In this document: one piece after another, positions 4,934 through 61,071 of the stretch
How positions within the stretch are numbered: the first letter of the stretch is position 1
Layout: every line of letters begins with the position of its first letter
Notes under the pieces: model-generated
The model's database searches: none
Told to the model about the DNA's origin: nothing
What the model saw: only the letters and a program-made list of their open reading frames with translations
Translations under genes and position numbers: made by a program
From: a virus
Taxonomy: Duplodnaviria > Heunggongvirae > Uroviricota > Caudoviricetes
DNA: 61,071 nucleotides
Virus record (IMG/VR): IMGVR_UViG_2778261463_000006
Coordinates: 1 to 61,071 of that record
Reading direction: 5' to 3' (one strand)

Positions 4934-5054
4934 GACAACATTTCGAGAACAGTTTTCATTAGCGGTCAGCAGGCGCTAGATACATCGAATTGATGTGCCG
5001 CGCGATAAATGTACCTATTCTATCAAGATAAATTACACCGACGCGGCATTAGAA

Positions 5055-5627
5055 TTACAGCTCAGATTGAGTTTGGCGCTTCTCTACAGGATGATAACGA
5101 TAAATCGTCGATACACCGATATCGTAAATAATTGCCAACTGTTTCCTGCTGTAGCCATTTTCGATCAACCTCGCTATTTGCTCATGTTGTTCTTTTGTCA
5201 ACTTCGGGCGACGTCCGCCAATGCGTCCTTGTGCGCGTGCTGCTGCCAGCCCGGCCAGTGTACGCTCTACAATTAATTCACGTTCCATTTCGGCTAAAGC
5301 TCCCATGACGTGAAAAAAGAAACGCCCCATGGGTGTTGATGTGTCAATGCTGTCCGTCAGACTACGGAAATTAACACCTTTTTCCCGCAATTCCTCAATA
5401 AGCGTGATCAGGTGTTTCATACTTCTGCCCAGTCTGTCCAGCTTCCAGACAACCAGCGTATCTCCTTCTGATAGCGTTCTGAGCAGTTTTTTCAATCCCG
5501 GTCTGGCTGATTTCGTTCCGCTGATTTTATCTTCAAAAATCAGTTCACATCCTGCGCACTCCAGCGCGTTACGCTGCAATTCTGTATTCTGGTCATTTGT
5601 TGATACGCGGACATAGCCAATAAGCAT
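5055..5627 (-). CDS. cin: Serine-recombinase DNA invertase (Cin/Gin/Hin/Pin family)
   Basis: 190 aa; catalytic N-terminus MLIGYVRVSTNDQ...VVWKLDRLGRS and C-terminal HTH; adjacent to invertible tail-fibre segment. Confidence 0.9.
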   Translation of the reverse strand: MLIGYVRVSTNDQNTELQRNALECAGCELIFEDKISGTKSARPGLKKLLRTLSEGDTLVVWKLDRLGRSMKHLITLIEELREKGVNFRSLTDSIDTSTPMGRFFFHVMGALAEMERELIVERTLAGLAAARAQGRIGGRRPKLTKEQHEQIARLIENGYSRKQLAIIYDIGVSTIYRYHPVEKRQTQSEL

Positions 5628-5682
5628 GATGGATCCCCTGAATAAAAACCGGGGATGATGCCAGTTAGCCGTAATCTCTGCA

Positions 5683-5708
5683 TTTTCTTAAACGTTGGTT
5701 TGGGAGAA
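5683..5708. other. cix-like 26-bp recombination site (left)
   Basis: TTTTCTTAAACG-TT-GGTTTGGGAGAA; inner half-site is the reverse complement of the inner half-site at 7568-7593; resembles hix/gix architecture. Confidence 0.6.
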
Positions 5709-6206
5709 GGCTCTGCATTACCGGTTGGTGTGCCTGTTCCGTGGCCTTCAGCCACTCCGCCAACAGGCTGGCTGAAATGCAACGGAGCAGCTTTTTCTGC
5801 TGAAGAATACCCGGAGCTGGCAAAGGCTTACCCGACAAATAAATTGCCTGATTTACGTGGTGAGTTTATTCGTGGCTGGGATGACGGACGTGGTATGGAT
5901 ACGGGGAGGGCAATATTATCCGCTCAGGGCGATGCCATACGTAATATCTATGGTGAGTTCAAGACTGTAAACACCGAAAATTATTCAATATGGGAATCAG
6001 TAGGCTCGTTTAAGGGGGCAGTAGTGCCTTTGAACCCCTCAACGAACAATAGTTATTTCTCCTTAATCAGAAGTATGGTGACAGAAAGAACAGATGGCGC
6101 TGTTTACCCAAAAGTGATTGGCCTTGATGCTTCAAGAATTGTTCCAACTGCAAACGAAAACCGTCCTCGTAACATTGCCTTTAATTATATCGTGAGGGCT
6201 GCCTGA
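5697..6206 (+). CDS. Alternative tail-fibre C-terminal segment Sv' (no own start; would fuse in frame to S constant part after inversion)
   Basis: Reading frame continues GLGE... across the crossover exactly as the S frame does at 7579; ORF-track start at 5655 is read-through of the cix site. Confidence 0.55.
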   Translation, partial: GLGEGSALPVGVPVPWPSATPPTGWLKCNGAAFSAEEYPELAKAYPTNKLPDLRGEFIRGWDDGRGMDTGRAILSAQGDAIRNIYGEFKTVNTENYSIWESVGSFKGAVVPLNPSTNNSYFSLIRSMVTERTDGAVYPKVIGLDASRIVPTANENRPRNIAFNYIVRAA

Positions 6207-6808
6207 TGAATAAAGCCGTATTAAATAACGAACTCATTGCCATAAAAGCGGGAGTCATTACCATTTATAATTATGATGGTGAAACGCGGGAATATATTTC
6301 CACATCAACTGAATATCTTGCGGTTGGCGTCGGTATCCCGGCATGTTCTTGTTTAGATGCACCAGTTACACATAAAGCTGGTTATGCAATCTGCCGTTCT
6401 GCAGATTTTAACTCATGGGAATATGTGCCAGACCATCGCGGTGAAATCATCTATAGCACCGAAACAGGAGAATCGAAAGAAATCACAGCTCCGGGTGATT
6501 ATCCTGAAAATACAACCACTATCGCCCCGTTAACGCCATACGATAAATGGGATGGTGAGAAATGGGTGACGGATACCGAGGCACAGCATAGCGCCGCAGT
6601 AGAAGCGGCAGAAGCACAGCGCCAGTCGCTGATTGATGCTGCAATGGCTTCCATCAGTCTGATTCAGCTGAAATTACAGGCCGGGCGGAAGCTGACGCAG
6701 CCAGAAAACACCCGACTTAACGCTGTGCTGGATTATATTGACGCGGTGACGGCAACAGATACCAGCACAGCGCCGGACGTCATCTGGCCTGAACTGCCGG
6801 AGGCGTAG
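6206..6808 (+). CDS. Tail fibre assembly protein U' (for Sv')
   Basis: 200 aa; C-terminus with Tfa hallmark ...DYIDAVTATDTSTAPDVIWPELPEA; start overlaps Sv' stop (TGATG). Confidence 0.75.
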   Translation: MNKAVLNNELIAIKAGVITIYNYDGETREYISTSTEYLAVGVGIPACSCLDAPVTHKAGYAICRSADFNSWEYVPDHRGEIIYSTETGESKEITAPGDYPENTTTIAPLTPYDKWDGEKWVTDTEAQHSAAVEAAEAQRQSLIDAAMASISLIQLKLQAGRKLTQPENTRLNAVLDYIDAVTATDTSTAPDVIWPELPEA

Positions 6809-7220
6809 GCCATTCAATATCTGGCGCACCGGAAGTATCGACCAGTTCCAGTGCGTCCAGATAATCCAGCCACAAATTATATTGCGCCAGTTCCTCACCT
6901 TTCAGGCGACCAATCGCCGCTTTACCAGGCCATTGCTTACTGTTTATGTATTCGTTGACCTGATTAATCAATTGCTGCTTTTCCAGTTCGGCTGCGGCAA
7001 TTTGTTCCTCATGAGTTGGCGGTGGAATATCAATCCATGCAGGCATTCCGTCGATGACACCTCTGTATTTTCCTTCTGGTGCTTCCTTCATAAATTCGGC
7101 GGCAACAGTGTCGTCAATTTCGATTCCATCACCGGGCCATTCGCCGGATTCCTGATAAGCGATTTTAAGCTCCACAGGGAAAAACGCATTTTTCTCGGCA
7201 CTGAAAATATATTTCTGCAT
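6780..7220 (-). CDS. Tail fibre assembly protein U
   Basis: 146 aa; Tfa-family C-terminus ...DYLDALELVDTSGAPDIEWPTPP; immediately downstream of S. Confidence 0.8.
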   Translation of the reverse strand: MQKYIFSAEKNAFFPVELKIAYQESGEWPGDGIEIDDTVAAEFMKEAPEGKYRGVIDGMPAWIDIPPPTHEEQIAAAELEKQQLINQVNEYINSKQWPGKAAIGRLKGEELAQYNLWLDYLDALELVDTSGAPDIEWPTPPAVQAR

Positions 7221-7222
7221 TT

Positions 7223-9019
7223 CTACCGTCCTATCGAAATATAACTGAATCTGTATTGCTGTGAGATATCACTGGTTGCCACACGCCACGCTGAATTACT
7301 GATATGTTCAAAATTTACAGACAAAACCTGCGGGGCAGGATTCGACGGGTCTGACTGAACGGCATCAGACATAACACTGACTGAAACCATCGGCTGATTA
7401 GGGAATGGTATAGGGAAGTGTCCACTGATAAAGCGGGTCGTGTTTCCTGAAAAAGTGCCAAACTGAACAATATATCCACCTGGTAGCCTGAACCATCCCG
7501 AACCAGAAGCGAATGCTCCCATATCCGGTATCTGATTATCTCCTGTGCCCACATCCCTTTTCGCCGCTTCTCCCAAACCAAGGTAATCAAGAACTCCCTG
7601 AGTGCTGGTTTTACCAAGAATGGCACGTCCAACACTTGTCAACGCGGTTAACGCGGCACGATCTGCCCCTGTAAAATATGGGAGTTTATCTGCTGATGTA
7701 GCAAGCTCCGCCAGCGCCGTCAGGGTGGCATCCTTCGGTTGCTTACCCGCAAGCGCGTTAGTCATGGTGGTCGCAAAATTCGGGTCATTGCCCAGCGCCG
7801 CAGCCAGTTCGTTCAGCGTGTTCAGTGCATCAGGTGACGAATCTACAAGTGCGGCAATCGCGGCCATAACGAAAGCCGTGCTTGCGATCTGGGTACTATT
7901 AGTCCCCTGTGGCGCTGTTGGTGTTGTTGGCGTTCCGGTCAGTGCCGGGCTGTTTAATGGTGCTTTCTTGTTCGTTTCATCCATTACCGCCTTAACAGCT
8001 TTTGGTGTCGCTGCCAGCGTTTCAGACGTGCTGTTCGTGGCGCTACTGAGCTGAGTGATGCCTTTCGCTGTCAATGAAGCTGTTGGCACACCAGTGATCT
8101 GATTCCAGGGATGTGTATGACTGGATGGTGCCTTTCCGGCTGCTAGATCGTATGCAGCTTTAACCGCTTTTGGAGTTGCAGCTAATGTTTCAGAAGTGCT
8201 GTTGGTGTCGCTACTGAGCTGAACTATCCCTTTTTGTGTCGTGGTTGCATCCTGGGCTGTATACTTCCCGTTAGCCAGGTCATATGCAGCCTTGACAGCT
8301 TTCGGTGTGGCGGCCAGCACTTCGGACGTGCTGTTAGTGGCACTACTGAGCTGAACTAATCCCTTTTGCGTTGTGCTTGCATCCTGCGCCGTATACTTGC
8401 TTTTCGCCAGATCGTAGGCTTTTTTAACTGCCAGCGAACTCGCAGCAACATCACTTCTGGTACTGGTTACAGAGTCTGAAATATCAATGCCGATCGTGCG
8501 GTTGATACGCTCGGATGTATCAATCATCTCTTGAGTAATGGTAGATACGCCAGCAGGGATATTCACCGTACAAACCAGCAGTTCCCCATCACCTAACTGA
8601 TATGAATCGGTATAGGTTCTGGCAACAAATTCAGCTGCATGAATATGTGACGCGGTATTCACCTGATAGGTATCTTCTCCAAGAAGGTATCTTCCCTTCA
8701 GCACAATTGCATATTTCTTGCCTGCGTTAAGTGCAAGAGAGATATCCTTACGATGCTGAATAGTTACCTGGTAGAATTCACCAATATCCACTGACGCCGC
8801 GCCAGCGGTTTTATCTCCATCCACTGAGGTGATTAACAGGTTCATCCCACCGCCAGGCTTAGGCAAGAAACCAGCATAAAATCCCGGGTCAACAATTCCC
8901 CTGAATTTTCGGTTTAGAGCGGCTGACAGATATGGTTCGTGGTATTGCACATCAGCCACCATAGCCAACGACTCGGGTGATGGGTAAGTAACCGATGTAA
9001 CAACTGTAACGTCATTCAT
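7223..9019 (-). CDS. Tail fibre protein S (constant part 7580-9019, variable C-terminal part Sv 7223-7579)
   Basis: Likely start MNDVTVV at 9019 (ORF track extends to 9106); internal fibre repeats KAVKAAYDLA...TQKG.VQLSS.TNSTSE.LAATP; cix site inside coding frame. Confidence 0.8.
   Translation of the reverse strand: MNDVTVVTSVTYPSPESLAMVADVQYHEPYLSAALNRKFRGIVDPGFYAGFLPKPGGGMNLLITSVDGDKTAGAASVDIGEFYQVTIQHRKDISLALNAGKKYAIVLKGRYLLGEDTYQVNTASHIHAAEFVARTYTDSYQLGDGELLVCTVNIPAGVSTITQEMIDTSERINRTIGIDISDSVTSTRSDVAASSLAVKKAYDLAKSKYTAQDASTTQKGLVQLSSATNSTSEVLAATPKAVKAAYDLANGKYTAQDATTTQKGIVQLSSDTNSTSETLAATPKAVKAAYDLAAGKAPSSHTHPWNQITGVPTASLTAKGITQLSSATNSTSETLAATPKAVKAVMDETNKKAPLNSPALTGTPTTPTAPQGTNSTQIASTAFVMAAIAALVDSSPDALNTLNELAAALGNDPNFATTMTNALAGKQPKDATLTALAELATSADKLPYFTGADRAALTALTSVGRAILGKTSTQGVLDYLGLGEAAKRDVGTGDNQIPDMGAFASGSGWFRLPGGYIVQFGTFSGNTTRFISGHFPIPFPNQPMVSVSVMSDAVQSDPSNPAPQVLSVNFEHISNSAWRVATSDISQQYRFSYISIGR
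7568..7593. other. cix-like 26-bp recombination site (right), inside S
   Basis: TTCTCCCAAACC-AA-GGTAATCAAGAA; matches hix/gix-type architecture; inner 12-bp half-site identical (reverse complement) to left site. Confidence 0.6.
8030..8420 (-). repeat. Three tandem ~120-bp repeats encoding tail-fibre repeat units (boundaries approximate)
   Basis: Near-identical DNA blocks ...gctactgagctga... at about 8040, 8205 and 8335; protein repeats of ~37 aa. Confidence 0.55.
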
Positions 9020-17782: not shown

Positions 17783-18259
17783 TTATTTTGCGCGCTTCAG
17801 GCAGCCATCTTCAGGTGCCGCGTTGAAAAGCTCTGCGGCCTTACGTAGCGTAAATGTTGCGATTTTTTTTCCGTCTACGTATGCATCGAATGTTTTAACT
17901 TCCATATCAGGGGTATCTGACCAAAAACCATACCAGTAACTATCACCCACAGAGGAACCGATAGAACTGATAGGATATTCATCATCACCAACTTTCAGCG
18001 TTATTTGTTCTTTTTTAGCATCAAATGACTCACCGCCAGGTTCTGTTTTCATGAGAGTGAGTAGTCGTGTTCCTACTTGATTGGGATCCGTATTATTAAA
18101 TCCAACATCGCACTCAAATGTAAGCGTATAATTATCTTTGCTGGAAACAGCATAAGAACGAACACCATGAGTCTCGCCGGTTGACCATTTGCTTACATTT
18201 GCCATTGATGAAAATGGAGTAAGCAAAGCAAGAATTAGAAAAAATCGTTTGATGCGCAT
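17783..18259 (-). CDS. Secreted/periplasmic protein (158 aa) with N-terminal signal peptide
   Basis: MRIKRFFLILALLTPFSSMA signal-like N-terminus. Confidence 0.55.
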   Translation of the reverse strand: MRIKRFFLILALLTPFSSMANVSKWSTGETHGVRSYAVSSKDNYTLTFECDVGFNNTDPNQVGTRLLTLMKTEPGGESFDAKKEQITLKVGDDEYPISSIGSSVGDSYWYGFWSDTPDMEVKTFDAYVDGKKIATFTLRKAAELFNAAPEDGCLKRAK

Positions 18260-18310
18260 TAATTTATCTCCTTTGGATATTAATATTTTAATTAGTTAAC
18301 CACCATATAT

Positions 18311-18958
18311 TCACCATTCATAGGGTAAATTAAGCGCTTTTAAACCTTGCTGGAAAGTATTAAGAGAGCCGTTTTTTTGTTGTTCCATTTTTTCGCGTGC
18401 AGCTTTCTCATACTGCTCCATCCGTTGGTTATACTCTTGCAATTCCTCCGGGGAGAGGTTTCCCATTGGGGAGTTTGTACCCGGCCCCCTGGCCCGTTCT
18501 TCAAGCGTACCCTGAACGTTTTGATGGCGCATTCCCGGGGCGTTTCTGATTGAATCAATGCCATTTCTTCCAACGTCTTCTTTATTAACGGCATTGCTCG
18601 CCACCAGTACGCCCCAGCTAGGGATAGCAAAATCAGGAGCGGTTTCGCATGCCTTTACCATATAATCGAAAGAGCTTCGATTGATCTCGTTTGCGTCGGG
18701 ATTTAATAGGCGAGAATATTGATATTTAGCATTTTCGTTGGTTGCGACTTTATACAGTTCTTGCTGCACCATCGCTTCAGAAAGTTTAAGGCGTTTCATA
18801 TCTGATAGTAACTTCTTGCGCATGGATTCGTCTTGACTGACAGCAAAACCGTAAACGTGCCCAAGGTATTTCGTATAATCGGTACAAATCTCCTTTACGC
18901 TTGATGCTGCATTAACAGTCCCAGCCATAAATAATAACGGTAGTAATAGTTTTCTCAT
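18311..18958 (-). CDS. Secreted protein, candidate Sim-like superinfection-exclusion protein (about 215 aa from MRKLLL start)
   Basis: Signal peptide MRKLLLPLLFMAGTVNAAS; C-terminal segment GMRHQNVQGTLEERARGPGT matches Sit segment GMRREVVQGTLEERARGKGT; located beside immI region. Confidence 0.55.
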   Translation of the reverse strand: MRKLLLPLLFMAGTVNAASSVKEICTDYTKYLGHVYGFAVSQDESMRKKLLSDMKRLKLSEAMVQQELYKVATNENAKYQYSRLLNPDANEINRSSFDYMVKACETAPDFAIPSWGVLVASNAVNKEDVGRNGIDSIRNAPGMRHQNVQGTLEERARGPGTNSPMGNLSPEELQEYNQRMEQYEKAAREKMEQQKNGSLNTFQQGLKALNLPYEW

Positions 18959-22487: not shown

Positions 22488-22537
22488 TAGATTGCTCTAA
22501 TCTGGAGTCACCTGGCGTTTTCAGTTTGAGGTCGGAG

Positions 22538-22783
22538 ATGCAATCTGATTTTTTACAGTTAGCGATCGCTTTTGCAGGATATGTTTGTATTGGCTTCTGT
22601 GTATACATGATCAGCCGAAAAATGCTTGTCGATATCGACCGCAAAGAACGAGCAGAGGAGATCTTAGTATGGATTTTCTTTGGCGCGGTCTGGCCATTAG
22701 GGATCATGTTTGCTGCAACATTTCTTCTGATGTGGATATTCACCCTTCCAGGTGATTTCTATAGAAAAAAAGCCAGACATTGA
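22538..22783 (+). CDS. Small membrane protein (about 81 aa from internal Met)
   Basis: Two hydrophobic segments; ORF track extends to 22457 overlapping repL. Confidence 0.4.
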   Translation: MQSDFLQLAIAFAGYVCIGFCVYMISRKMLVDIDRKERAEEILVWIFFGAVWPLGIMFAATFLLMWIFTLPGDFYRKKARH

Positions 22784-22965
22784 TACACCCGCTGCGGTGT
22801 GCTTGAGGCTATCTGCTTCAGGCATTCCCCGAAAAGCAGATAGAAGAAAGCCCCAGTAAACATTATGCGTCCCGCACAACGCTTAACATTAACCGGGGCC
22901 ATACCTATGCTTAGCATACGTAGATTAACCCTCTCCCCTTTTAAGGAGCAAGGAATTTTTTACTG

Positions 22966-23598
22966 CTATGCCGCCTTTCCAGTTATGGATTCTGCGACAA
23001 GAACAACCCCATGCTTACTTCGATCCGGATGTTCACTCCATATCTCGGATTCAGGAATACTTTTCCCGTCATAGCAAACACGTTCGCCGTCAAACGGGTA
23101 ATACTGAGCAGCATCGGTGTCGAGGATAAACACTTTTAGCTCGGAAGAGCGACGGGCGATATGTTGCCAAAGAGCTTTTCCACCTTCGTATTGCTCATTA
23201 TCACTGAGCAAAACAACACCAGCTTTTGAGGCTACGGTTTCGTAAACAAAAGTAGCTAAACCGACATCCCGGACAGTTCCATCAACCACGATACCTTCAA
23301 TCTGGCCAACATCGCTATCCTCCCAGAACTTCCTTACCAGTACGCCTTCAAGCTGCGGGCGACGTTGAAGTTCAAGAGTAGCGACAACCTTATGCCGCAT
23401 ATCACCATCGATAACAGAAGGCGCAGCCTCTATTACAGCTGCAAATGGGGTTTTGGAATCCCATATAACCTGGTAAAGCACACCCTGGATGGTAACTCCG
23501 TCCAGGATCGAAAATCGACGAGCGACAGTACCCGGGGAGTACGACATTGGAATCACAGCCATTTTAGAGTCCCCCTTTAACAGTACAGGCACAAACAT
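22966..23598 (-). CDS. Hypothetical protein (about 198-210 aa)
   Basis: Clean ORF; C1 operator-like site in its upstream region. Confidence 0.5.
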   Translation of the reverse strand: MFVPVLLKGDSKMAVIPMSYSPGTVARRFSILDGVTIQGVLYQVIWDSKTPFAAVIEAAPSVIDGDMRHKVVATLELQRRPQLEGVLVRKFWEDSDVGQIEGIVVDGTVRDVGLATFVYETVASKAGVVLLSDNEQYEGGKALWQHIARRSSELKVFILDTDAAQYYPFDGERVCYDGKSIPESEIWSEHPDRSKHGVVLVAESITGKAA

Positions 23599-23625
23599 CT
23601 ACCTCAATAATTGTAGTTTATTAGA

Positions 23626-23642
23626 ACATTAATAATCTAACA
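23626..23642 (-). promoter_or_regulatory. C1 operator-like site (minus orientation) upstream of 22966-23598 gene
   Basis: Reverse complement AATGTTCTAATAAACTA, about 14/17 to consensus. Confidence 0.4.
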
Positions 23643-23733
23643 TAAAACTCCAGACAATGTTATCGATGCATTTTTATATAAAATAGTTATAAAAAAAGCT
23701 CCCGAAGGAGCTTTAAAATACAAGGGATGGCTC

Positions 23734-32762: not shown

Positions 32763-33683
32763 TTATGGATTGCGCTTATGGATCTGGAAGCCGATTTTCC
32801 TGCCGTTTTTTATCTCTGAAAATTTAAGATATTCAATAGCTTCCAAATCTTTCATGGCTTTTCTGATAACGCTATTTTGCACGCTAACGGATGATTTGAG
32901 ATTAAGCCTCGCTCTAAGGCGCTCAATGCTGACAGGTGCCGGGTTGGCGGGTAGAGCCTCAAAGAATGTATACAGTACCTTGGCCGTCTCTTTGCGCCCT
33001 AGTTTATCCAGCATCTTCAGCTTCAGGATTCGCTTATAGTCAACATAGTAAAGTTCAGATAGCTGTTTCTGCGGCTGGATCTCGATAACATCAAGCTCGG
33101 TATTCAGGCTGCTATATGCCAACAAGTTGACGTTAATGTTATTGAGATGACCTTTTGCCGCCGGGAAGCGGAATTTGACAACTGTCTGCTGAATGCGTGT
33201 CAGAGAGTCATCAATACTTTTACGGAACGCCTTTGAAAGGCGCTTACGTGGATAGCCGCATCGATCGGCAAACTCGGAGAATGGCAGGGTGATTATGCCG
33301 TCATCATCAGGTGCGTAGTCAAACAACGCGGAAGTTATGCCCACCCACACCTTAAAATCAGTATCCATATCCAGGCGTGGACCATGAATTTCAATTCCCT
33401 CATAGCCTTCCTGCTCAACAATTTTGAGGCTTGATAGTTCTTCAGTTGCGTTCGTTGTGTTTGTTGTAACTGACGATCCGCGACGTAGCGCCACATTGGT
33501 AGATTTTAAGGTTGGCACAAACACACCTAAGCGCAACAAAGCGATGGGTTGTATAGTGCTGTTGTTATTGGGCTTCAGGCTGTGGATTTCTCCTGTATTT
33601 CCTGCAACTTCTTCAACGCTAAGGAAGCCTTTACTTTCTTCCGGCATCACGGTTTCTCCATGTGTGGCGCGGCCTGACGTCAA
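32763..33683 (-). CDS. repA: Plasmid replication initiator RepA (start probably at 33647)
   Basis: Rep protein flanked by iterons on both sides; RepFIB/P1 RepA-like. Confidence 0.85.
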   Translation of the reverse strand: MTSGRATHGETVMPEESKGFLSVEEVAGNTGEIHSLKPNNNSTIQPIALLRLGVFVPTLKSTNVALRRGSSVTTNTTNATEELSSLKIVEQEGYEGIEIHGPRLDMDTDFKVWVGITSALFDYAPDDDGIITLPFSEFADRCGYPRKRLSKAFRKSIDDSLTRIQQTVVKFRFPAAKGHLNNINVNLLAYSSLNTELDVIEIQPQKQLSELYYVDYKRILKLKMLDKLGRKETAKVLYTFFEALPANPAPVSIERLRARLNLKSSVSVQNSVIRKAMKDLEAIEYLKFSEIKNGRKIGFQIHKRNP

Positions 33684-50375: not shown

Positions 50376-50954
50376 ATGTTGCGCTTTACTGAGGAAGAGT
50401 TTCAGGCTTTTAGTGAGCGTCGAAATAAGGGGCGGTCCAGGCCAAAAACCAAAAAGGATCCATTCTTATCGCTTGCGCCGGTAAAAGAAGTTTCTCCACA
50501 TGCGAAGGCACTTGCAGCACTGGCAAAGAACCCAGACCTGCGCGACGGAAATTGCGAGCACTTCGAGCAGGTTTTCATTTTTGATTACTTCGAACGCAAG
50601 CACCCTGACATCTATGAGCTGTTGCATGCAACGCCTAACGGAGGGAAGCGTTCAAAAGCAACCGCCGGGAAAATGAAGGCTTAAGGGCAGAAAAAAGGTT
50701 ATCCGGACATGAGTCTCGATAAAGCATGCGGTATTTATCACGGCATGCGAATTGAGCTTAAAGAACCAAATGGTAAAGCCCCGACGAAAGAGCAGATCGC
50801 CTGGATGCGCAGGCTTAGAGAGGAAGGCTACTACGTTGTTCTTGCGTATGGTGCAGAACAAGCGATTACCGCCATCCTGGAATACATAAGTCTTAAAAAG
50901 GGTGAGGCTATCGAGCATGTATTGAACGGCGATAAGTGGTTGCATATTGCTTAA
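50376..50954 (+). pseudogene. VRR-NUC-type nuclease gene interrupted by a single in-frame TAA stop (50682-50684)
   Basis: Same frame reads ...HATPNGGKRSKATAGKMKA*GQKKGYPDMSLDKACGIYHGMRIELKEPNGKAPTKEQIAWMRRL...; both halves match VRR-NUC motif. Confidence 0.5.
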
Positions 50955-51150
50955 AATAATAAATTAATTAGTGCATATACGCTCTTTGTGATAGTGCACT
51001 TTAACATCGGGAGAATAATCGTGTCATCCAAGGTTAATTATGAGTCGCTGGCATCGGTCATGCCGCGTAATGAACAGGAAACAGATGCTGTAGTGGACCC
51101 TGTAATCGCTGAAATGAATGCTCGCCTGGAGGCTGAATTTGCAGCTGAGA

Positions 51151-51780
51151 ATGAACATACCACCCAGGGCGACTAGGACTGTTTTTTGTGTCGGTAGCGG
51201 TCCGTCACTCACTCGTGAGGACTGTGCTGCTATAGAAAAAACTGGCTGTTCAATCATCGCGGTTAACAATTCCTGGCAGATGTTCGATGACATTTATGCC
51301 TTATACGCCGGTGATTTGTCATGGTGGAAGCAATACGGATCCACCATACCGGGAGGGAGATTCCGCAAAGTGACAGCCAACCTGGCGGCGGCGAAATCAT
51401 TTTCGTTGGAGTACAGGCGATATTGTGGACCGGCGGAAGGGGTAAATAGCGGCGCGCAGGCTATCAGTCTGGCTGCTGAATCAGGGGCTGAAGTAGTGGT
51501 ATTAGTCGGCTATGACTGTTCTCTGCAAAACGGCCTTCATTGGCATGGCGCGCACCCTCAAGCACTACGGAATCCAACGCAGGTGTCTATTTCAAAATGG
51601 CAACAGCAGTTCCTGGATACCCGCAAAAAACACGCAGATTTACATATTTTGAATGCAAGTAGGAGCAGTGCAATTCAATGTTTCCCAAGAATAAATTTAG
51701 AGGCAGTGATCGCGTTATTATCGTCGGCAGTGGCCCAAGCGCCGCAAACTTTGTTGCGCCGCGCGGAGTGCCGATTATAG
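51151..51780 (+). CDS. MptE/DUF115-like protein (GSGPS motif), paralog 1
   Basis: Motif FCVGSGPSLT...SIIAVNNS; start uncertain (51118 or 51151). Confidence 0.45.
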   Translation: MNIPPRATRTVFCVGSGPSLTREDCAAIEKTGCSIIAVNNSWQMFDDIYALYAGDLSWWKQYGSTIPGGRFRKVTANLAAAKSFSLEYRRYCGPAEGVNSGAQAISLAAESGAEVVVLVGYDCSLQNGLHWHGAHPQALRNPTQVSISKWQQQFLDTRKKHADLHILNASRSSAIQCFPRINLEAVIALLSSAVAQAPQTLLRRAECRL

Positions 51781-56014: not shown

Positions 56015-56419
56015 ATGAAAGGCGAAGTGAAAGAGCGCGGCATGATTTTCAACGATGAGATGGTCCGGGCCATCCTCGAAGGAAGGAAAACGCAGACGCG
56101 GCGGATAATGAAAAATCAGCCTGCGGAAGTTGGTCCAGAAGCACCAGTGATGGTTAGAAAAATTGGTGCAGGTTTTCAGTGGTACGGGGCTGATGGTGTA
56201 AGCAGTGTTTTCAATTGCCCCTTTGGTATCGTCGGCGATCGAATTTGGGTTCGTGAAACATGGGCGATATTAGGCAATGAGGATGGTTGCAGTGTGGACT
56301 GGAACGACAACCTTTGTCGTGGCGATGAGAAGAGCGCAGCAAGGATTTATCGGGCCAGTTGTGAGCAAAAGCCTGGTGATTACGGCTTATGGTCGATATG
56401 TGGCCTACAAAAAAGGTAG
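56015..56419 (+). CDS. ASCH/PUA-like domain protein (134 aa)
   Basis: N-terminal motif FNDEMVRAILEGRKTQTRR typical of ASCH-like phage proteins. Confidence 0.55.
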   Translation: MKGEVKERGMIFNDEMVRAILEGRKTQTRRIMKNQPAEVGPEAPVMVRKIGAGFQWYGADGVSSVFNCPFGIVGDRIWVRETWAILGNEDGCSVDWNDNLCRGDEKSAARIYRASCEQKPGDYGLWSICGLQKR

Positions 56420-56780
56420 CTGGAACGGCAACGATGTTTACTGGCTTCAACACGGTGGATTGCCAACCGATGACTTCAGTAAAGCGACCATCTTTTGCGT
56501 CGCCAACAAAAACGAACCAGGAATAGTTTGGTTGCCATTTTCCATTGCTGATGCAGTAAAGCGCCGGACGTTCAATATCAATAACTTTAACCGCAGAACA
56601 ATGGTTCAGGGCGCAGGTTTGGTCATGCCTGACTGGTTGAAAGAGCAGAACAGAAGAAAGAAGTCGCGAAGCGGGAAGGTGCGTTGGAATTGTCCGCATT
56701 GCGGAAAAATCACCTGGCAGTACAGCCCATATGATTTTGAAGGCTGTCGTGATTACAACTGTGAAGGATGGCGAGAATGA
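56277..56780 (+). CDS. ORF overlapping the ASCH gene in another frame; Cys-rich C-terminus (CPHCG...CRDYNCEG); possible frameshift partner
   Basis: 167-aa ORF; real start uncertain. Confidence 0.35.
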   Translation: MRMVAVWTGTTTFVVAMRRAQQGFIGPVVSKSLVITAYGRYVAYKKGSWNGNDVYWLQHGGLPTDDFSKATIFCVANKNEPGIVWLPFSIADAVKRRTFNINNFNRRTMVQGAGLVMPDWLKEQNRRKKSRSGKVRWNCPHCGKITWQYSPYDFEGCRDYNCEGWRE

Positions 56781-56955
56781 CAATTGACTATCAAGAACTG
56801 CGCGAGGCAGCGGAACAGGCAACGCAAGATGAATGGGTAGCATATATTTTGCCGGGTCATAACGGCATTTATCCTGCGCGCACGTCTGAGGGTAGGCATT
56901 GTGCGGATACTTTATTGACTGGCCTGGCGTCTGTCAGGGGCGGGAGAGCATCAAC

Positions 56956-57456
56956 ATGAGCATCAGAACCTACGCAGTGAATTGCAATGACGCATGGCTA
57001 AACACCGAAGGTGATGACATCTCCGGCTCATACGTTAAGTACAAAGACCATCAGGAAGTGGTTGCCGCTCTTGAGGCCAAGTGCGCGGCGCTGGCAGTGG
57101 AGAATGAGCTGGCTCGTAAGGCAGTTCAGGCATTCTGCGATGTTGTTGGCGACAACACCGAGGTTATCGCTGAGGTGGTTGGGCGAGATGGCGTTCTGGT
57201 TATTTTGGAGGCCATGAAGGCAACAGGAAATATGCCAGCCACCGATGCTTTCCTGGCTGAAGTGCGGGCGCAGGGCGTGGATGCTGCTATAGAAGCTGCA
57301 AAAAATCTGGTGGCCCAAGAATATGAGTATAAGGATTTCAAAGCGGCGCAGAGTGATTGCTGTATGCACCCTGGTTCAGATCTGGTAGGGAAGGTTGAAA
57401 TGACTGAGTGGTTAGTTGACTTTGCTGCCCAGCTTCGCAAAGGAGGCAACCAGTGA
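56956..57456 (+). CDS. Hypothetical protein (about 167 aa)
   Basis: ORF in early block; preceded by 63-aa Ea22-like N-terminal fragment ORF 56768-56959. Confidence 0.45.
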   Translation: MSIRTYAVNCNDAWLNTEGDDISGSYVKYKDHQEVVAALEAKCAALAVENELARKAVQAFCDVVGDNTEVIAEVVGRDGVLVILEAMKATGNMPATDAFLAEVRAQGVDAAIEAAKNLVAQEYEYKDFKAAQSDCCMHPGSDLVGKVEMTEWLVDFAAQLRKGGNQ

Positions 57457-58142
57457 GCGAAATTAATTACCAGGCACTGCGTGAGGCGGCGGAACGTGCA
57501 ATTCCAGCAATGGAACGCCTGTTAATGTTGCCAGCTGATGATGATTTGTTAAGTGAACAGGAACTTAAAGATTACGGTGTGGATATTGATGCGCTCAACG
57601 CCTTCAAATTTCTGGCCGGACCAGAAACCGTGCTGGCACTACTGGATGAACGGGAAAGGAACCAGCAATACATCAAATCACGCGACCAGGAGAACGAGGA
57701 TATTGCGCTAACGGTAGGGAAGCTGCGTGTTGAGCTGGAAGGCAAAGACAGCAAAATAGCCAATCTTACCGCCGAACGCGATGCTCTTCGTGAAGGTGAG
57801 ATGGGCGACGCTAGGCATAGCAACACACGGGCCGCAGCTGATATCTACTTCCAACTGGTCGAGGAGTGCGAAATTCCTGCTGGCGGATCTCTGGTCGAGT
57901 ACGTTGACGATATGCGCGAGAAGCTGGAAGCCGCAGAGAAGCGCATTGCAGAGTTAGAAAGTGGTTCTCAGGCACAAAAGTTAGTTGAAGCAATCATTGT
58001 TGCGATAGAAAACGAACAGGAAAGGCTTTTTGATGAAGATTACCTAATGGATTCGAAAGAATGCATTGACGTAATTCGTGAAGAAGTAAAGCGATGGAAT
58101 GATTCCCGTGCCGCTGGCATTCGCATCAACGGAGGTGAGTAG
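57453..58142 (+). CDS. Ea22/Ead-like coiled-coil protein (229 aa)
   Basis: N-terminus MSEINYQALREAAERA... typical of Ea22-like family; central coiled coil. Confidence 0.5.
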   Translation: MSEINYQALREAAERAIPAMERLLMLPADDDLLSEQELKDYGVDIDALNAFKFLAGPETVLALLDERERNQQYIKSRDQENEDIALTVGKLRVELEGKDSKIANLTAERDALREGEMGDARHSNTRAAADIYFQLVEECEIPAGGSLVEYVDDMREKLEAAEKRIAELESGSQAQKLVEAIIVAIENEQERLFDEDYLMDSKECIDVIREEVKRWNDSRAAGIRINGGE

Positions 58143-58314
58143 TGCGTGTGGCATGTATCGGCTTGTTACCGTACCCGACTCGTTTTTGGGCTTCTGCGCT
58201 AATTGCAAAGCCACATGTCCTGATGGCTGACAACATCATCCCGGCACCAAAGCGCCGCCATACCGGTATTGCAGCGGCACGACGAGCAGCAAAGAGACGC
58301 AGGAGAGCAAAGCG

Positions 58315-58491
58315 ATGAAAAACCGTAAGGCAAAACGACTTTTTTTACAGCGACCTGTGCGTGTGGTGGAGCTGGTTATTAGCAACCATAAGATAGCGGT
58401 ACTCCATCCATTTGGTCAGGTGGCTTTTGCCGCAAAGCGTAAGCCTACTGCGTCACAGAACAGGCGGAAGAAAGGGTACGCTGTAAGATGA
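58315..58491 (+). CDS. Small basic protein (58 aa), paralog A
   Basis: MKNRKAKRLF...; ATGA overlap with next gene. Confidence 0.4.
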   Translation: MKNRKAKRLFLQRPVRVVELVISNHKIAVLHPFGQVAFAAKRKPTASQNRRKKGYAVR

Positions 58492-58676
58492 AAAACCGTA
58501 AAGCAAAGATTCTGTTAGTTCGTAGAAACGCTCCTGGCGTCTGGCAGTGGGTGAGACTCAGCAACCGACGGATGGGGTTAATGAAACATTACGGGATGAT
58601 GGATTGTGGTTTTTGCAAAAAGCCCAGCGCGGCGCAAAACCGCTGGAAAAACCACTTGCGTACTAAAGGAGAGTGA
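58488..58676 (+). CDS. Small basic Cys-containing protein (62 aa), paralog B
   Basis: MKNRKAKILL...; shares N-terminus and KKP.A.QNR segment with paralog A. Confidence 0.45.
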   Translation: MKNRKAKILLVRRNAPGVWQWVRLSNRRMGLMKHYGMMDCGFCKKPSAAQNRWKNHLRTKGE

Positions 58677-58677
58677 T

Positions 58678-58893
58678 ATGGCTATCGCTGCAAGTTACAC
58701 CATGCATCTCTATTGTGACTGCCGTCAGTGCACGGAAGGTGTATATCCAGTGCCAGACTTCGGTGAGTATATAGGTACGTCATGGGCTGGCTGTGCAAAA
58801 GAGGCCCGTAAAGACGGGTGGCGAATAAGCAAAGACAAAACGCGTGCTTTTGCGCCAGGGCATAAAATTTTGAGGAGCAACAAAGGAGAGTGA
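58678..58893 (+). CDS. Small Cys-rich protein (71 aa)
   Basis: CDCRQC motif; ends KGE like the upstream gene; ORF track places start at 58606. Confidence 0.4.
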   Translation: MAIAASYTMHLYCDCRQCTEGVYPVPDFGEYIGTSWAGCAKEARKDGWRISKDKTRAFAPGHKILRSNKGE

Positions 58894-58894
58894 T

Positions 58895-59113
58895 GTGCCT
58901 ACATTATTCAGAAAAGAATATCCGCGAAAAAGTAGAGCGACAGAATTTTTGTTTCTCATTCTGTTTATCGTGTTGATGATACCGATATCCCCGTTAATTC
59001 TGGTATGGGGAATCGGAAAAATAATTGAGCCAGTTATTGAATTGTATAACGACGTGGTATGGGCTCCGTTCAACACACTGCACAATAAAATTAATCCGTA
59101 TAAGGAAAACTGA
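58895..59113 (+). CDS. Small membrane protein (72 aa)
   Basis: Central hydrophobic helix FLFLILFIVLMIPISPLILVWGIG. Confidence 0.45.
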   Translation: MPTLFRKEYPRKSRATEFLFLILFIVLMIPISPLILVWGIGKIIEPVIELYNDVVWAPFNTLHNKINPYKEN

Positions 59114-59114
59114 T

Positions 59115-59378
59115 ATGGCAACTTTGACAAAAAAAGAACAGGCATGGTTGAACGAATTACAGGACGTTCTTGATCGCTGTCCATCACCGAAAAAAATTGG
59201 TTTTTACACCATTGGCGATAAAAGCATTTACCTGTATGACCTGCGCCGCATGGATGAAATCATGGAGGCTCTTGATAATCGTTCGTCAATGGATTGGTGT
59301 GTTGCTGTCCATGATATGAATGCCGGATTTGATGAAAAGATTTTATTCCCCTCATCAGTTGAAAGCACAGCAGGATAA
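59115..59378 (+). CDS. Hypothetical protein (87 aa)
   Basis: ATG with upstream AAGGA; ORF track extends to 59025. Confidence 0.4.
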   Translation: MATLTKKEQAWLNELQDVLDRCPSPKKIGFYTIGDKSIYLYDLRRMDEIMEALDNRSSMDWCVAVHDMNAGFDEKILFPSSVESTAG

Positions 59379-59388
59379 GGACTAACAC

Positions 59389-60090
59389 ATGACAACGTTC
59401 ACCGACAAAGAACTGATTAAAGAAATCAAAGAGCGTATAGGCAGCCTGGACGTCCGAGACAATATTGAGCGTCGGGCTTATGAAATCGCACTGGCATCGC
59501 TGGAAGCAGAGCCGGTGGCGTGGATGCGTGATGACGCAGATGGTCGTGAGTATAACGCTCGCAATGAATTTTCTGGTGGAGGGGGAGGAGTTCCACTCTA
59601 CGCCACCCCTCCAGCGCCAGTAGTACCGGAAGAAAAACCAATGCCTAACCCTCTAAGCATGCTTGAAAGAGAGATCACACAACTGATTGGTGATGCGCAG
59701 GAAGCCACTGTCACTGGCTATGAGTTAATCGCTGAAGCTTGGCGTTTGATGGATGGACAAGACCCTAAAACCAGCGATTGGCATAGCAACGCTTCGAAGT
59801 ATTTAAATTCCAATATTGTAGAAAAAGTTGATGATGACCGTATTGAAGCTGTTAAGGCTGTTTTGCGTAGACTGGCTGGCAACTATCCGGTAACTCCGGA
59901 TGGTTGGATAAGCTGTAGTGAGCGAATGCCCGCTCAAGATGATTGGATTTTAATTTATTCAAAGCACGGCGAGTATATGGCAGGACAGGTACAAGAGGAA
60001 TACGTGGAGTTGAGCGACGGCACTTTATCGTGGTTAGGGAACGCCTTGTTCTGGATGCCTCTACCGGAACCGCCTCAGGAGGCAAAATGA
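59389..60090 (+). CDS. DUF551-domain protein (233 aa)
   Basis: C-terminal DGWISCSERMPAQDDWILIY...FWMPLPEPP matches DUF551 signature. Confidence 0.55.
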   Translation: MTTFTDKELIKEIKERIGSLDVRDNIERRAYEIALASLEAEPVAWMRDDADGREYNARNEFSGGGGGVPLYATPPAPVVPEEKPMPNPLSMLEREITQLIGDAQEATVTGYELIAEAWRLMDGQDPKTSDWHSNASKYLNSNIVEKVDDDRIEAVKAVLRRLAGNYPVTPDGWISCSERMPAQDDWILIYSKHGEYMAGQVQEEYVELSDGTLSWLGNALFWMPLPEPPQEAK

Positions 60091-60347
60091 TGGATGTCAA
60101 AGAGAAGATTTTGCAGGTGATGCGTTCCCGGGCTGCCCTGCAAGATAAAGCTCTCGGCGGGGAATATCCATTCAGGATGGCAACCTGGAATCTGCGGTTG
60201 GCAATGGAGAAGGAATTTCCTGATGAAGAATGGCGTTCGGCAGATTTGCGCAAAATTCTTATGGAGATGGCTAAAGACGGAACAGTATCCAAAGATACCC
60301 ATGCCAGCCGGATTGGTCAGGCGGTATGGAGACTGGAGGTGAGGTAA
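60087..60347 (+). CDS. Hypothetical protein (86 aa)
   Basis: ATGA overlap with upstream stop. Confidence 0.4.
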   Translation: MMDVKEKILQVMRSRAALQDKALGGEYPFRMATWNLRLAMEKEFPDEEWRSADLRKILMEMAKDGTVSKDTHASRIGQAVWRLEVR

Positions 60348-60628
60348 TGGCTAACCTGCAACTTGCCGTCAAAGGTGAATACTTCGATGCCATGATTCGC
60401 GGGGAGAAAACGGAAGAGTATCGCTTGTGTAATGACTACTGGAATAAGCGCCTCGTTAACCGTAAGTATGACCGTCTGATTATCACAAAGGGATATCCGA
60501 AGCGCGACGATTCCAGTCGCAGAATAGACGTCCCGTATAACGGATATGAAATCAAGACAATCACACATCCGCACTTCGGTGATAAACCGGTAAAGGTGTT
60601 CGCGATAAAAGTGAAGATTAATAGCTAA
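60347..60628 (+). CDS. ASCH-like domain protein (93 aa)
   Basis: LAVKGEYFDAMIRGEKTEEYR motif; GGAGG RBS before ATG at 60347. Confidence 0.5.
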   Translation: MANLQLAVKGEYFDAMIRGEKTEEYRLCNDYWNKRLVNRKYDRLIITKGYPKRDDSSRRIDVPYNGYEIKTITHPHFGDKPVKVFAIKVKINS

Positions 60629-60651
60629 ATTTCAATTAACACGGAGTAATT

Positions 60652-60948
60652 ATGTGGCGCGGTAATAATCATGGCGGAAGCCAGATGATACTTACCGAAT
60701 ATACGGTCGACCCCAAAACCTATAAATCACGTTCAGTATATTTGCTTCGGCACAATAGCCGCGTAAGGAATACCGTGCTGGAGCAAAATCTGACCGTTGA
60801 AATGGATAATTTTGGGAACTTCAAGCCAACAATTGCGCTTGATGATTTTCCGCGTGGTTTAAGCGAAAGAGAAGCAATGCTGAAATTAGCAGAATGGCTA
60901 CAAAGATTAAGCACTGAGAGATCCCCTCATAATTTCCCCAAAGCGTAA
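60652..60948 (+). CDS. Hypothetical protein (98 aa)
   Basis: Clean ORF with RBS. Confidence 0.4.
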   Translation: MWRGNNHGGSQMILTEYTVDPKTYKSRSVYLLRHNSRVRNTVLEQNLTVEMDNFGNFKPTIALDDFPRGLSEREAMLKLAEWLQRLSTERSPHNFPKA

Positions 60949-61071
60949 CCATGTGTGAATAAATTTTGAGCTAGTAGGGTTGCAGCCACGAGTAAGTCTT
61001 CCCTTGTTATTGTGTAGCCAGAATGCCGCAAAACTTCCATGCCTAAGCGAACTGTTGAGAGTACGTTTCGA

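What the first reader, a model, noticed from the sequence alone, without database searches (positions are those of the whole stretch)
50376..50954. VRR-NUC nuclease gene split by one in-frame TAA
The two adjacent ORFs are in the same frame and together recreate a VRR-NUC domain (PNGGKR ... G.PD ... IELK ... GK ... W) interrupted only at 50682-50684. This is either a recent nonsense mutation (pseudogene), a sequencing error, or a site of programmed readthrough.
Basis: seen in the sequence. Interest (0 to 1): 0.45.

Follow-up and report, generated by a model that had tools for sequence, protein, structure and literature searches.

The report
Nonsense-mutated pmgM nuclease gene, P1-like plasmid
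A single G-to-T change has put a stop codon in the middle of pmgM, a dispensable DNA-junction nuclease gene of a P1-like phage-plasmid; it is an ordinary, strain-private broken gene, not a recoding signal.

Summary
ORFs 50376-50684 and 50709-50954 share one frame, separated by one TAA (50682-50684). Joined, they give the 192-aa PmgM protein of phage P1 (98.4% identical), a VRR-NUC (PD-(D/E)xK) nuclease.

The window is contig NNVD01000031.1 of NCBI assembly GCA_002485525.1, a P1-like phage-plasmid. Its pmgM differs from the intact gene of phage Ro157c2YLVW by one base: G->T at 50682, turning Glu103 (GAA) into TAA.

The T allele is private:
- absent from 5,426 complete E. coli genomes, 72,556 plasmids and 50,697 phage records;
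- absent from three contig collections;
- 107 relatives read directly carry GAA (106) or GAG (1).

A second assembly (Logan, SRR3657340) reproduces the T, so an assembler artefact is unlikely.

The stop falls before the catalytic GYPD and IELK motifs. The next in-frame start (ATG 50709) lies just after the catalytic Asp and has only a weak ribosome-binding site. The window encodes no suppressor tRNA, and TAA is also the gene's normal stop.

pmgM is non-essential in P1 in published knockout and CRISPRi screens. It is the only one of about 59 P1-homologous genes in the window with an internal stop.

Verdict: a recent loss-of-function allele. Programmed readthrough and a natural two-gene arrangement are rejected. 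Low interest.

The parts
50021..50039 (+). Late promoter LPpmgL of the pmgL-pmgM operon, mapped from the P1 annotation
   Evidence: Annotated in P1 at 78495-78513. The window sequence is identical, 0 mismatches.
50054..50070 (-). C1 repressor operator O26, overlapping the sigma-70 promoters of pmgL
   Evidence: Annotated in P1 at 78528-78544. Identical in the window.
50128..50373 (+). pmgL, 81 aa, intact. First gene of the operon; a DksA/TraR-like zinc-finger protein.
   Evidence: 98.8% identical to P1 PmgL. Matches PHROG 54, 'DksA-like zinc-finger protein', E=1.6e-12.
50376..50954 (+). The whole pmgM reading frame (192 codons), a VRR-NUC nuclease gene, here interrupted and so a pseudogene
   Evidence: Orthologue of P1 pmgM at 78850-79428.
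50376..50684 (+). Truncated product, 102 aa. It holds the PmgM-specific N-terminal extension and the first part of the nuclease core up to PNGGKR...KMKA. It lacks the Asp, Glu and Lys of the active site.
   Evidence: No Pfam hit on its own.
50682..50684 (+). Premature ochre codon TAA. The mutated base is T at 50682 (G in all relatives), so Glu103 GAA became TAA.
   Evidence: the single difference from Ro157c2YLVW. (106 GAA, 1 GAG, 0 TAA). (T allele absent elsewhere).
50697..50708 (+). Codons for GYPD (aa 108-111), the 'PD' of the PD-(D/E)xK active site. They lie downstream of the stop and upstream of the next possible start.
   Evidence: Sequence. Aligned to GYPD of psNUC 4QBL.
50709..50954 (+). 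Residual 81-aa ORF starting at Met112. It is the 3' part of pmgM, not a separate gene.
   Evidence: The SD-like pairing is weak, -3.4 kcal/mol, and 32% of all + strand ATGs in the window do as well. No in-frame ATG, GTG or TTG lies between the TAA and 50709.
50748..50759 (+). Codons for IELK (aa 125-128), the 'ExK' of the active site
   Evidence: Sequence. Aligned to IEIK of psNUC.
50961..50977 (-). C1 operator Oppp downstream of pmgM. With the predicted promoter PpmgN (50922-50948) it gives the downstream genes their own control.
   Evidence: P1 annotation. 1 mismatch in the window for the operator, 3 for the predicted promoter.
51021..51176 (+). pmgN, the next gene, intact
   Evidence: 100% identical to P1 PmgN.

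Best explanation
The locus is pmgM of a P1-like phage-plasmid. It is the second gene of the late, C1-repressed pmgL-pmgM operon and encodes a VRR-NUC (PD-(D/E)xK) nuclease, most likely a dimeric enzyme that cuts Holliday junctions and other branched DNA during lytic growth. In this isolate one G->T transversion at 50682 changed Glu103 (GAA) to the ochre codon TAA. Translation ends after 102 residues, before the catalytic Asp111, Glu126 and Lys128. Any re-initiation can begin only at Met112, after the catalytic Asp. Neither fragment can therefore be an active nuclease, and the gene is a recent, strain-private loss-of-function allele. It is tolerated because pmgM is dispensable for P1 plaque formation, because host resolvases can presumably substitute, and because the operon is repressed in the plasmid-prophage state. 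Shown here: the base change, its privacy, the position of the motifs, and the integrity of all other genes. Taken from the literature: dispensability in P1 and the junction-resolving activity of prokaryotic VRR-NUC proteins. Inferred: that PmgM itself resolves junctions, that host enzymes substitute, and that the mutation is real rather than an error.
For: Identity and change: window pmgM equals Ro157c2YLVW pmgM except for G->T at 50682. It is 98.4% identical to P1 PmgM, with one stop in the alignment. P1, P7 and other relatives annotate one 579-nt CDS here.

Privacy of the allele: an 81-nt probe found 565 E. coli RefSeq records, 567 PLSDB plasmids and 19 phages, none identical. A 35-nt probe that can only seed across the T gave no match in either large collection. 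The exact 38-mer is absent from genome, viral and metagenome contig collections. The same 38-mer with NNN at the codon gave 106 GAA and 1 GAG.

Reality of the base: the window is GCA_002485525.1 contig NNVD01000031.1, and Logan contig SRR3657340_160 is identical over 6,283 bp including the TAA. pmgM is the only one of about 59 P1-homologous genes in the window with an in-frame stop.

Family: psNUC 4QBL at E=3.5e-17 over aa 77-180, with GYPD and IE(L/I)K aligned. psNUC is a dimeric Holliday-junction resolvase (PMC4103454). PmgM names a VRR-NUC subfamily (PMC9635880).

Dispensability: CRISPRi EOP 0.38, scored non-essential, and non-essential by single-gene knockout (PMC10695390; PMC9024508). A deletion was made in P1vir (PMC10583621).

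Independent disruptions of pmgM elsewhere: IS1 in phi456, and a 1-nt deletion in GCA_949812085.1.
Against: The reads were not available, so a consensus error cannot be formally excluded. If SRR3657340 is the run behind the NCBI assembly, the two assemblies are not independent samples. Natural pmgM alleles show purifying selection (pN/pS 0.18 over 55 alleles), so the gene is useful in nature and its loss is presumably mildly costly. The biochemical activity of PmgM itself has never been shown. The Pfam VRR_NUC score is below the gathering threshold.
Confidence: 0.85

Rival explanations
1. Sequencing or consensus error: the isolate really carries GAA and the T is an artefact of the draft assembly.
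For: The allele is seen only in records that may all derive from one isolate. It is absent from every other collection searched. The reads could not be inspected.
Against: Two different assemblies, NCBI and Logan, give the same base, and the Logan contig runs straight through the site without a branch. The change is a substitution outside a homopolymer. None of the other ~58 P1-homologous genes in 61 kb shows a stop or frameshift, so the error rate of this contig is low. By contrast, real differences from the nearest relatives run at about 1-2%, so a true variant is far more likely a priori than an error.
Confidence: 0.09
2. Functional recoding: the TAA is read through or suppressed to give a useful amount of full-length nuclease, either as programmed readthrough or through a suppressor tRNA.
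For: Background near-cognate readthrough of any stop is not zero. The element carries a tRNA-Tyr(GTA) that P1 lacks, and tRNA-Tyr is near-cognate to UAA. The host genome was not examined for ochre suppressors.
Against: A programmed site must be conserved, and here 0 of more than 1,100 relatives have a stop. The surrounding sequence is identical to that of intact genes, so no signal can have evolved for it. No tRNA with anticodon TTA is present in the window. The same gene ends in TAA. From general knowledge, UAA followed by G is among the strongest E. coli terminators.
Confidence: 0.03
3. Two genuine genes, or a split enzyme: the 102-aa and 81-aa products are made separately and work apart or together.
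For: Gene callers report both ORFs. The ATG at 50709 lies 24 nt after the stop, close enough for some re-initiation. PHROG 5702 ('Holliday junction resolvase', a 70-position profile) begins at PmgM residue 103, so short C-terminal ORFs have been annotated in some phages.
Against: All close orthologues are single ORFs. Distant homologues, found in 565 phage records of which 60 were listed, align across residue 103 in one piece. Residues 103-111, including the catalytic Asp of GYPD, belong to neither product. The SD of the second ORF is no better than that of a third of random ATGs. The sequence is one mutation away from the intact gene.
Confidence: 0.03

Closest known systems
PmgM of bacteriophage P1 (YP_006552.1; NC_005856 78850-79428), and Upf81.2 of P7
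   Same: Same gene in the same place: gp26 divergent upstream, then pmgL, pmgM, pmgN. Identical late promoter and C1 operator. 98.4% protein identity.
   Different: The window copy has TAA instead of GAA at codon 103.
psNUC (PDB 4QBL), stNUC and saNUC: stand-alone prokaryotic and phage VRR-NUC proteins
   Same: Homologous nuclease core, E=3.5e-17, with aligned GYPD, IE(L/I)K and the conserved Gln after the Lys. These proteins are dimers that cleave four-way junctions symmetrically (PMC4103454).
   Different: PmgM has an extra N-terminal region of about 75 residues. Its activity has not been tested. The window copy is truncated.
Other disrupted pmgM alleles: phi456 pmgM::IS1, and the frameshift in GCA_949812085.1
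   Same: Independent inactivation of the same dispensable gene, within a few bases of the same place.
   Different: Different mutational routes: an IS1 insertion with the 9-bp duplication GGCTGAAGG, and loss of one A from an A6 run. The window has a base substitution.
Programmed stop-codon readthrough, for example in the Q-beta coat/A1 protein
   Same: An in-frame stop with coding sequence continuing in the same frame.
   Different: Here the stop is not conserved in any relative. It is UAA-G rather than a leaky context, and it cuts a catalytic domain in two rather than adding an extension.

Membership tests
Orthologue of P1 pmgM | High identity over the full length of the protein | tested here: met
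   98.4% over 192 aa. One nucleotide from Ro157c2YLVW pmgM.
Orthologue of P1 pmgM | Conserved position: downstream of pmgL, upstream of pmgN, divergent from gene 26, with LPpmgL and operator O26 | tested here: met
VRR-NUC (PF08774), PD-(D/E)xK superfamily | Significant match to the family profile at the curated threshold | tested here: not met
   Pfam 20.9 bits against a gathering score of 23.8, E=3.9e-4, covering only model positions 56-115.
VRR-NUC (PF08774), PD-(D/E)xK superfamily | Sequence homology to a structurally solved family member | tested here: met
   4QBL (psNUC) at E=3.5e-17 over aa 77-180. PmgM is the name-giving member of a VRR-NUC subfamily (PMC9635880).
VRR-NUC (PF08774), PD-(D/E)xK superfamily | Catalytic D...ExK motif plus the conserved Gln | tested here: met
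   D111 in GYPD, E126 and K128 in IELK, and Q139 are encoded in frame. The first acidic residue, expected in helix 1, was not mapped.
VRR-NUC (PF08774), PD-(D/E)xK superfamily | [quoted passage not shown] | not tested
VRR-NUC (PF08774), PD-(D/E)xK superfamily | Nuclease or junction-resolving activity | not testable with these tools
   No biochemical data for PmgM were found in the papers read.
Functional gene (not a pseudogene) | Uninterrupted reading frame through the catalytic residues | tested here: not met
   TAA at codon 103, before D111, E126 and K128.
Programmed translational readthrough | The stop codon is conserved among relatives | tested here: not met
   No T allele in 5,426 E. coli genomes, 72,556 plasmids, 50,697 phages or three contig collections. 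107 of 107 relatives read directly have Glu.
Programmed translational readthrough | A cognate suppressor tRNA or a recoded stop in the element | tested here: not met
   The tRNAs in the window are Asn, Tyr(GTA), Thr and Met/Ile(CAT). pmgM itself terminates with TAA.
Two separate genes | The second ORF has its own start and ribosome-binding site, and orthologues are also split | tested here: not met
   Weak SD, -3.4 kcal/mol, at the 32nd percentile of random ATGs. Orthologues are single ORFs.

The most novel reading that the evidence does not exclude
The ochre allele might not be a simple null. Low-level misreading of UAA, perhaps helped by the element's extra tRNA-Tyr(GTA) or by a host ochre suppressor, could give a reduced dose of nuclease. 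Alternatively, the 102-aa N-terminal fragment, which holds the PmgM-specific extension, could keep a function of its own, such as DNA or partner binding.
Probability: 0.03. Interest if true: 0.3.

Novelty: already known. Interest (0 to 1): 0.07.

Why it matters
It matters little beyond correct annotation. The two ORFs should be annotated as one pseudogene, pmgM with a premature stop, not as two hypothetical proteins. The case adds one natural example to the experimental evidence that pmgM is dispensable for keeping a P1-like plasmid prophage. Nonsense, frameshift and IS1 alleles all occur against a background of purifying selection (pN/pS 0.18). This fits a gene that is useful only during lytic growth and is occasionally lost in lysogens.

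Tried and rejected
1. A mutational hot spot at codon 103. The exact-protein look-up returned at least seven wild-type contigs that end at codon 102/103, and phi456 has IS1 inserted in the same 9 bp. However, the protein cluster holds partial fragments of many lengths, 74-116 aa, so the look-up simply selects contigs that happen to end there. In addition, the phi456 IS1 junction is in none of 5,426 complete E. coli genomes. I rejected the idea as unsupported.

2. A generally decaying or poor-quality element. tblastn of 80 P1 proteins found no other internal stop or frameshift. The genes with no hit or a partial hit lie in stretches where the window does not align to P1.

3. Rho-dependent polarity on downstream genes. 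The 270-nt untranslated tail has more G than C (75 G, 50 C), and the downstream genes have their own predicted promoter and operator. This was not pursued further.

5. The first literature search for 'pmgM' alone returned mostly unrelated papers, and one search failed on a term that was too short.

Full report
**What is in the sequence.** Translating 50376-50954 on the + strand gives 192 codons with one internal stop, TAA at 50682-50684. The ORF list shows a 102-aa ORF (50376-50684) and an 81-aa ORF (50709-50954) in the same frame.

**What the locus is.** The window is collinear with bacteriophage P1 from about 27.5 kb to 84.9 kb of the P1 map, at 96-99% identity with mosaic gaps. The exact-protein look-up identified it as contig NNVD01000031.1 (61,071 bp) of NCBI assembly GCA_002485525.1.

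The two ORFs together are pmgM. This is one 579-nt CDS in P1, P7 (where it is called upf81.2), Ro157c2YLVW, SJ46, RCS47 and others, annotated 'VRR-NUC domain-containing protein' or 'Holliday junction resolvase'. Upstream lies pmgL, which matches a DksA/TraR-like zinc-finger family. The late promoter LPpmgL and the C1 operator O26 are both identical to P1. Downstream lie operator Oppp and pmgN.

**The change.** Over the 579 nt of pmgM, the window differs from phage Ro157c2YLVW at one position only: G->T at 50682, turning GAA (Glu103) into TAA.

**How common the allele is.** Four tests agree that it is private.
- An 81-nt probe centred on the site found 565 records in complete E. coli genomes, 567 PLSDB plasmids and 19 phage records. 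None was identical to the window.
- A 35-nt probe in which every possible 28-nt seed must include the T gave no match in either large collection.
- The exact 38-mer is absent from the genome, viral and metagenome contig collections.
- The same 38-mer with NNN at the codon retrieved 104 viral contigs. With three annotated loci, these carry GAA 106 times and GAG once.

Distant homologues were found in 565 phage records. The 60 listed align across residue 103 in a single piece.

**Real mutation or error.** A Logan assembly of run SRR3657340 contains an 11.6-kb contig identical to the window over 6,283 bp, TAA included. About four contig records in all carry the 102-aa plus 81-aa pair.

The change is a substitution, not a homopolymer indel. 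tblastn of 80 P1 proteins showed that pmgM is the only P1-homologous gene in the window with an in-frame stop. True differences from the nearest relatives run at about 1-2%, far above any plausible consensus error rate. I therefore rate a real mutation at about 0.85 and an error at about 0.09. Only the reads can settle this.

**Consequence for the protein.** The repaired protein matches psNUC (PDB 4QBL) at E=3.5e-17 over aa 77-180, with GYPD, IE(L/I)K and the conserved Gln aligned. It also matches PHROG 2363 over its full length, and PHROG 5702 'Holliday junction resolvase' over aa 103-173. The Pfam VRR_NUC score is just below the gathering threshold.

Pennell et al. showed that stand-alone prokaryotic and phage VRR-NUC proteins are dimers that cut four-way junctions symmetrically (PMC4103454). 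PmgM names one subfamily of VRR-NUC (PMC9635880).

The stop precedes Asp111, Glu126 and Lys128. Between the stop and ATG 50709 there is no in-frame start codon, so the catalytic Asp is lost from any re-initiation product. The SD-like pairing before ATG 50709 is -3.4 kcal/mol, against -5 to -7 for most of the real genes tested here, and a third of all + strand ATGs in the window do as well. Neither fragment can be an active nuclease. That PmgM resolves branched DNA before packaging is my inference, from its family and its late promoter.

**Why the loss is tolerated.** In P1, CRISPRi knock-down of pmgM gave an efficiency of plating of 0.38 and was scored non-essential. The same table cites the single-gene knockout study as also finding it non-essential (PMC10695390). 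In that study only pmgA, B, C, G and R of the 29 genes tested were essential (PMC9024508). A pmgM deletion has been made in P1vir (PMC10583621).

Natural alleles nevertheless show purifying selection: pN/pS is 0.18 over 55 distinct alleles. Other independent disruptions exist:
- IS1 in phi456, with target duplication GGCTGAAGG, equal to window 50678-50686;
- a 1-nt deletion in the A6 run in GCA_949812085.1, and probably in phage 673R5, whose match is one base shorter than the probe;
- replacement or loss of the 5' part of the gene.

**Readthrough.** A programmed site would be conserved, and this one is not. The flanking sequence is identical to that of intact genes. The window's tRNAs are Asn, Tyr(GTA), Thr and Met/Ile(CAT), with no suppressor among them. 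pmgM itself ends in TAA. From general knowledge, not tested here, UAA followed by G is a strong E. coli terminator.

**Verdict.** This is a known gene carrying an ordinary, strain-private nonsense mutation. It should be annotated as one pseudogene. Interest is low.

Noticed in passing
window 40219-40305 (+): A tRNA-Tyr (anticodon GTA) sits between tRNA-Asn and tRNA-Thr. P1, P7, D6, SJ46 and RCS47 lack it. Ro157c2YLVW and CMS-2020a have it.
   Followed up: partly
window 50128-50373 (+): pmgL, annotated in P1 as 'putative morphogenetic function', matches the DksA/TraR-like zinc-finger family PHROG 54 at E=1.6e-12. It forms an operon with the VRR-NUC nuclease gene.
   Followed up: partly
window 50678-50686; L120 (phage phi456) 1238-2023: In phage phi456 an IS1 is inserted in pmgM with the 9-bp target duplication GGCTGAAGG, which spans the very codon mutated in the window. 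The same junction is in none of 5,426 complete E. coli genomes.
   Followed up: yes
L112-L118 (contig ends); window 50681-50683: At least seven wild-type (G allele) contigs from NCBI, ENA and Logan end at pmgM codon 102/103, including a 91,934-bp Logan contig. This is probably selection by the exact-protein look-up, since partial fragments of many other lengths exist. What lies beyond those contig ends was not seen.
   Followed up: partly
L122 (GCA_949812085.1) 1169-1746; window 50691-50696: A relative whose pmgM matches the window's base for base, apart from having G at the mutated site, has lost one A from the A6 run 9 nt downstream of it, which shifts the frame. Phage 673R5 matches the 81-nt probe over only 80 record bases and also has a separately annotated 81-aa product, so it probably carries a similar deletion. 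This could be a real slip or a homopolymer sequencing error.
   Followed up: partly
L123 (ERR180839) 794-870; L124: In two other assemblies, homology to pmgM begins only at about nt 322-325 of the gene. In L123 it follows tciA-tciB-tciC directly, which implies a deletion of about 8 kb removing ban and the tail and baseplate genes.
   Followed up: no
window 32766-33578 (-): The RepA homologue is only 42% identical to P1 RepA, while the adjacent ParA and ParB are 99.7% identical. The plasmid replicon therefore differs from that of P1.
   Followed up: no
window 56015-61071: Homology to P1 ends at 56398, inside pmgT, whose ORF here is 134 aa against 309 aa in P1. The rest of the window carries an Ead/Ea22-like gene (57453-58142), a DUF551 gene (59389-60090) and unassigned ORFs.
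   Followed up: partly
window 5000-9000, 17800-18800, 22500-23700, 41100-42200: These stretches do not align to P1. The window has no homologue of U/U', simB/simC, rlfA/rlfB or tciABC. Its tail-fibre S protein matches P1 over only the first 467 residues, at 72% identity, and its Cin is 76% identical.
   Followed up: no
PmgM residues 103-173 (window 50682-50894): PHROG 5702 'Holliday junction resolvase' is a 70-position profile that starts exactly at PmgM residue 103. This suggests that short C-terminal-only ORFs of this family have been annotated in other phage genomes. The members could not be inspected.
   Followed up: no
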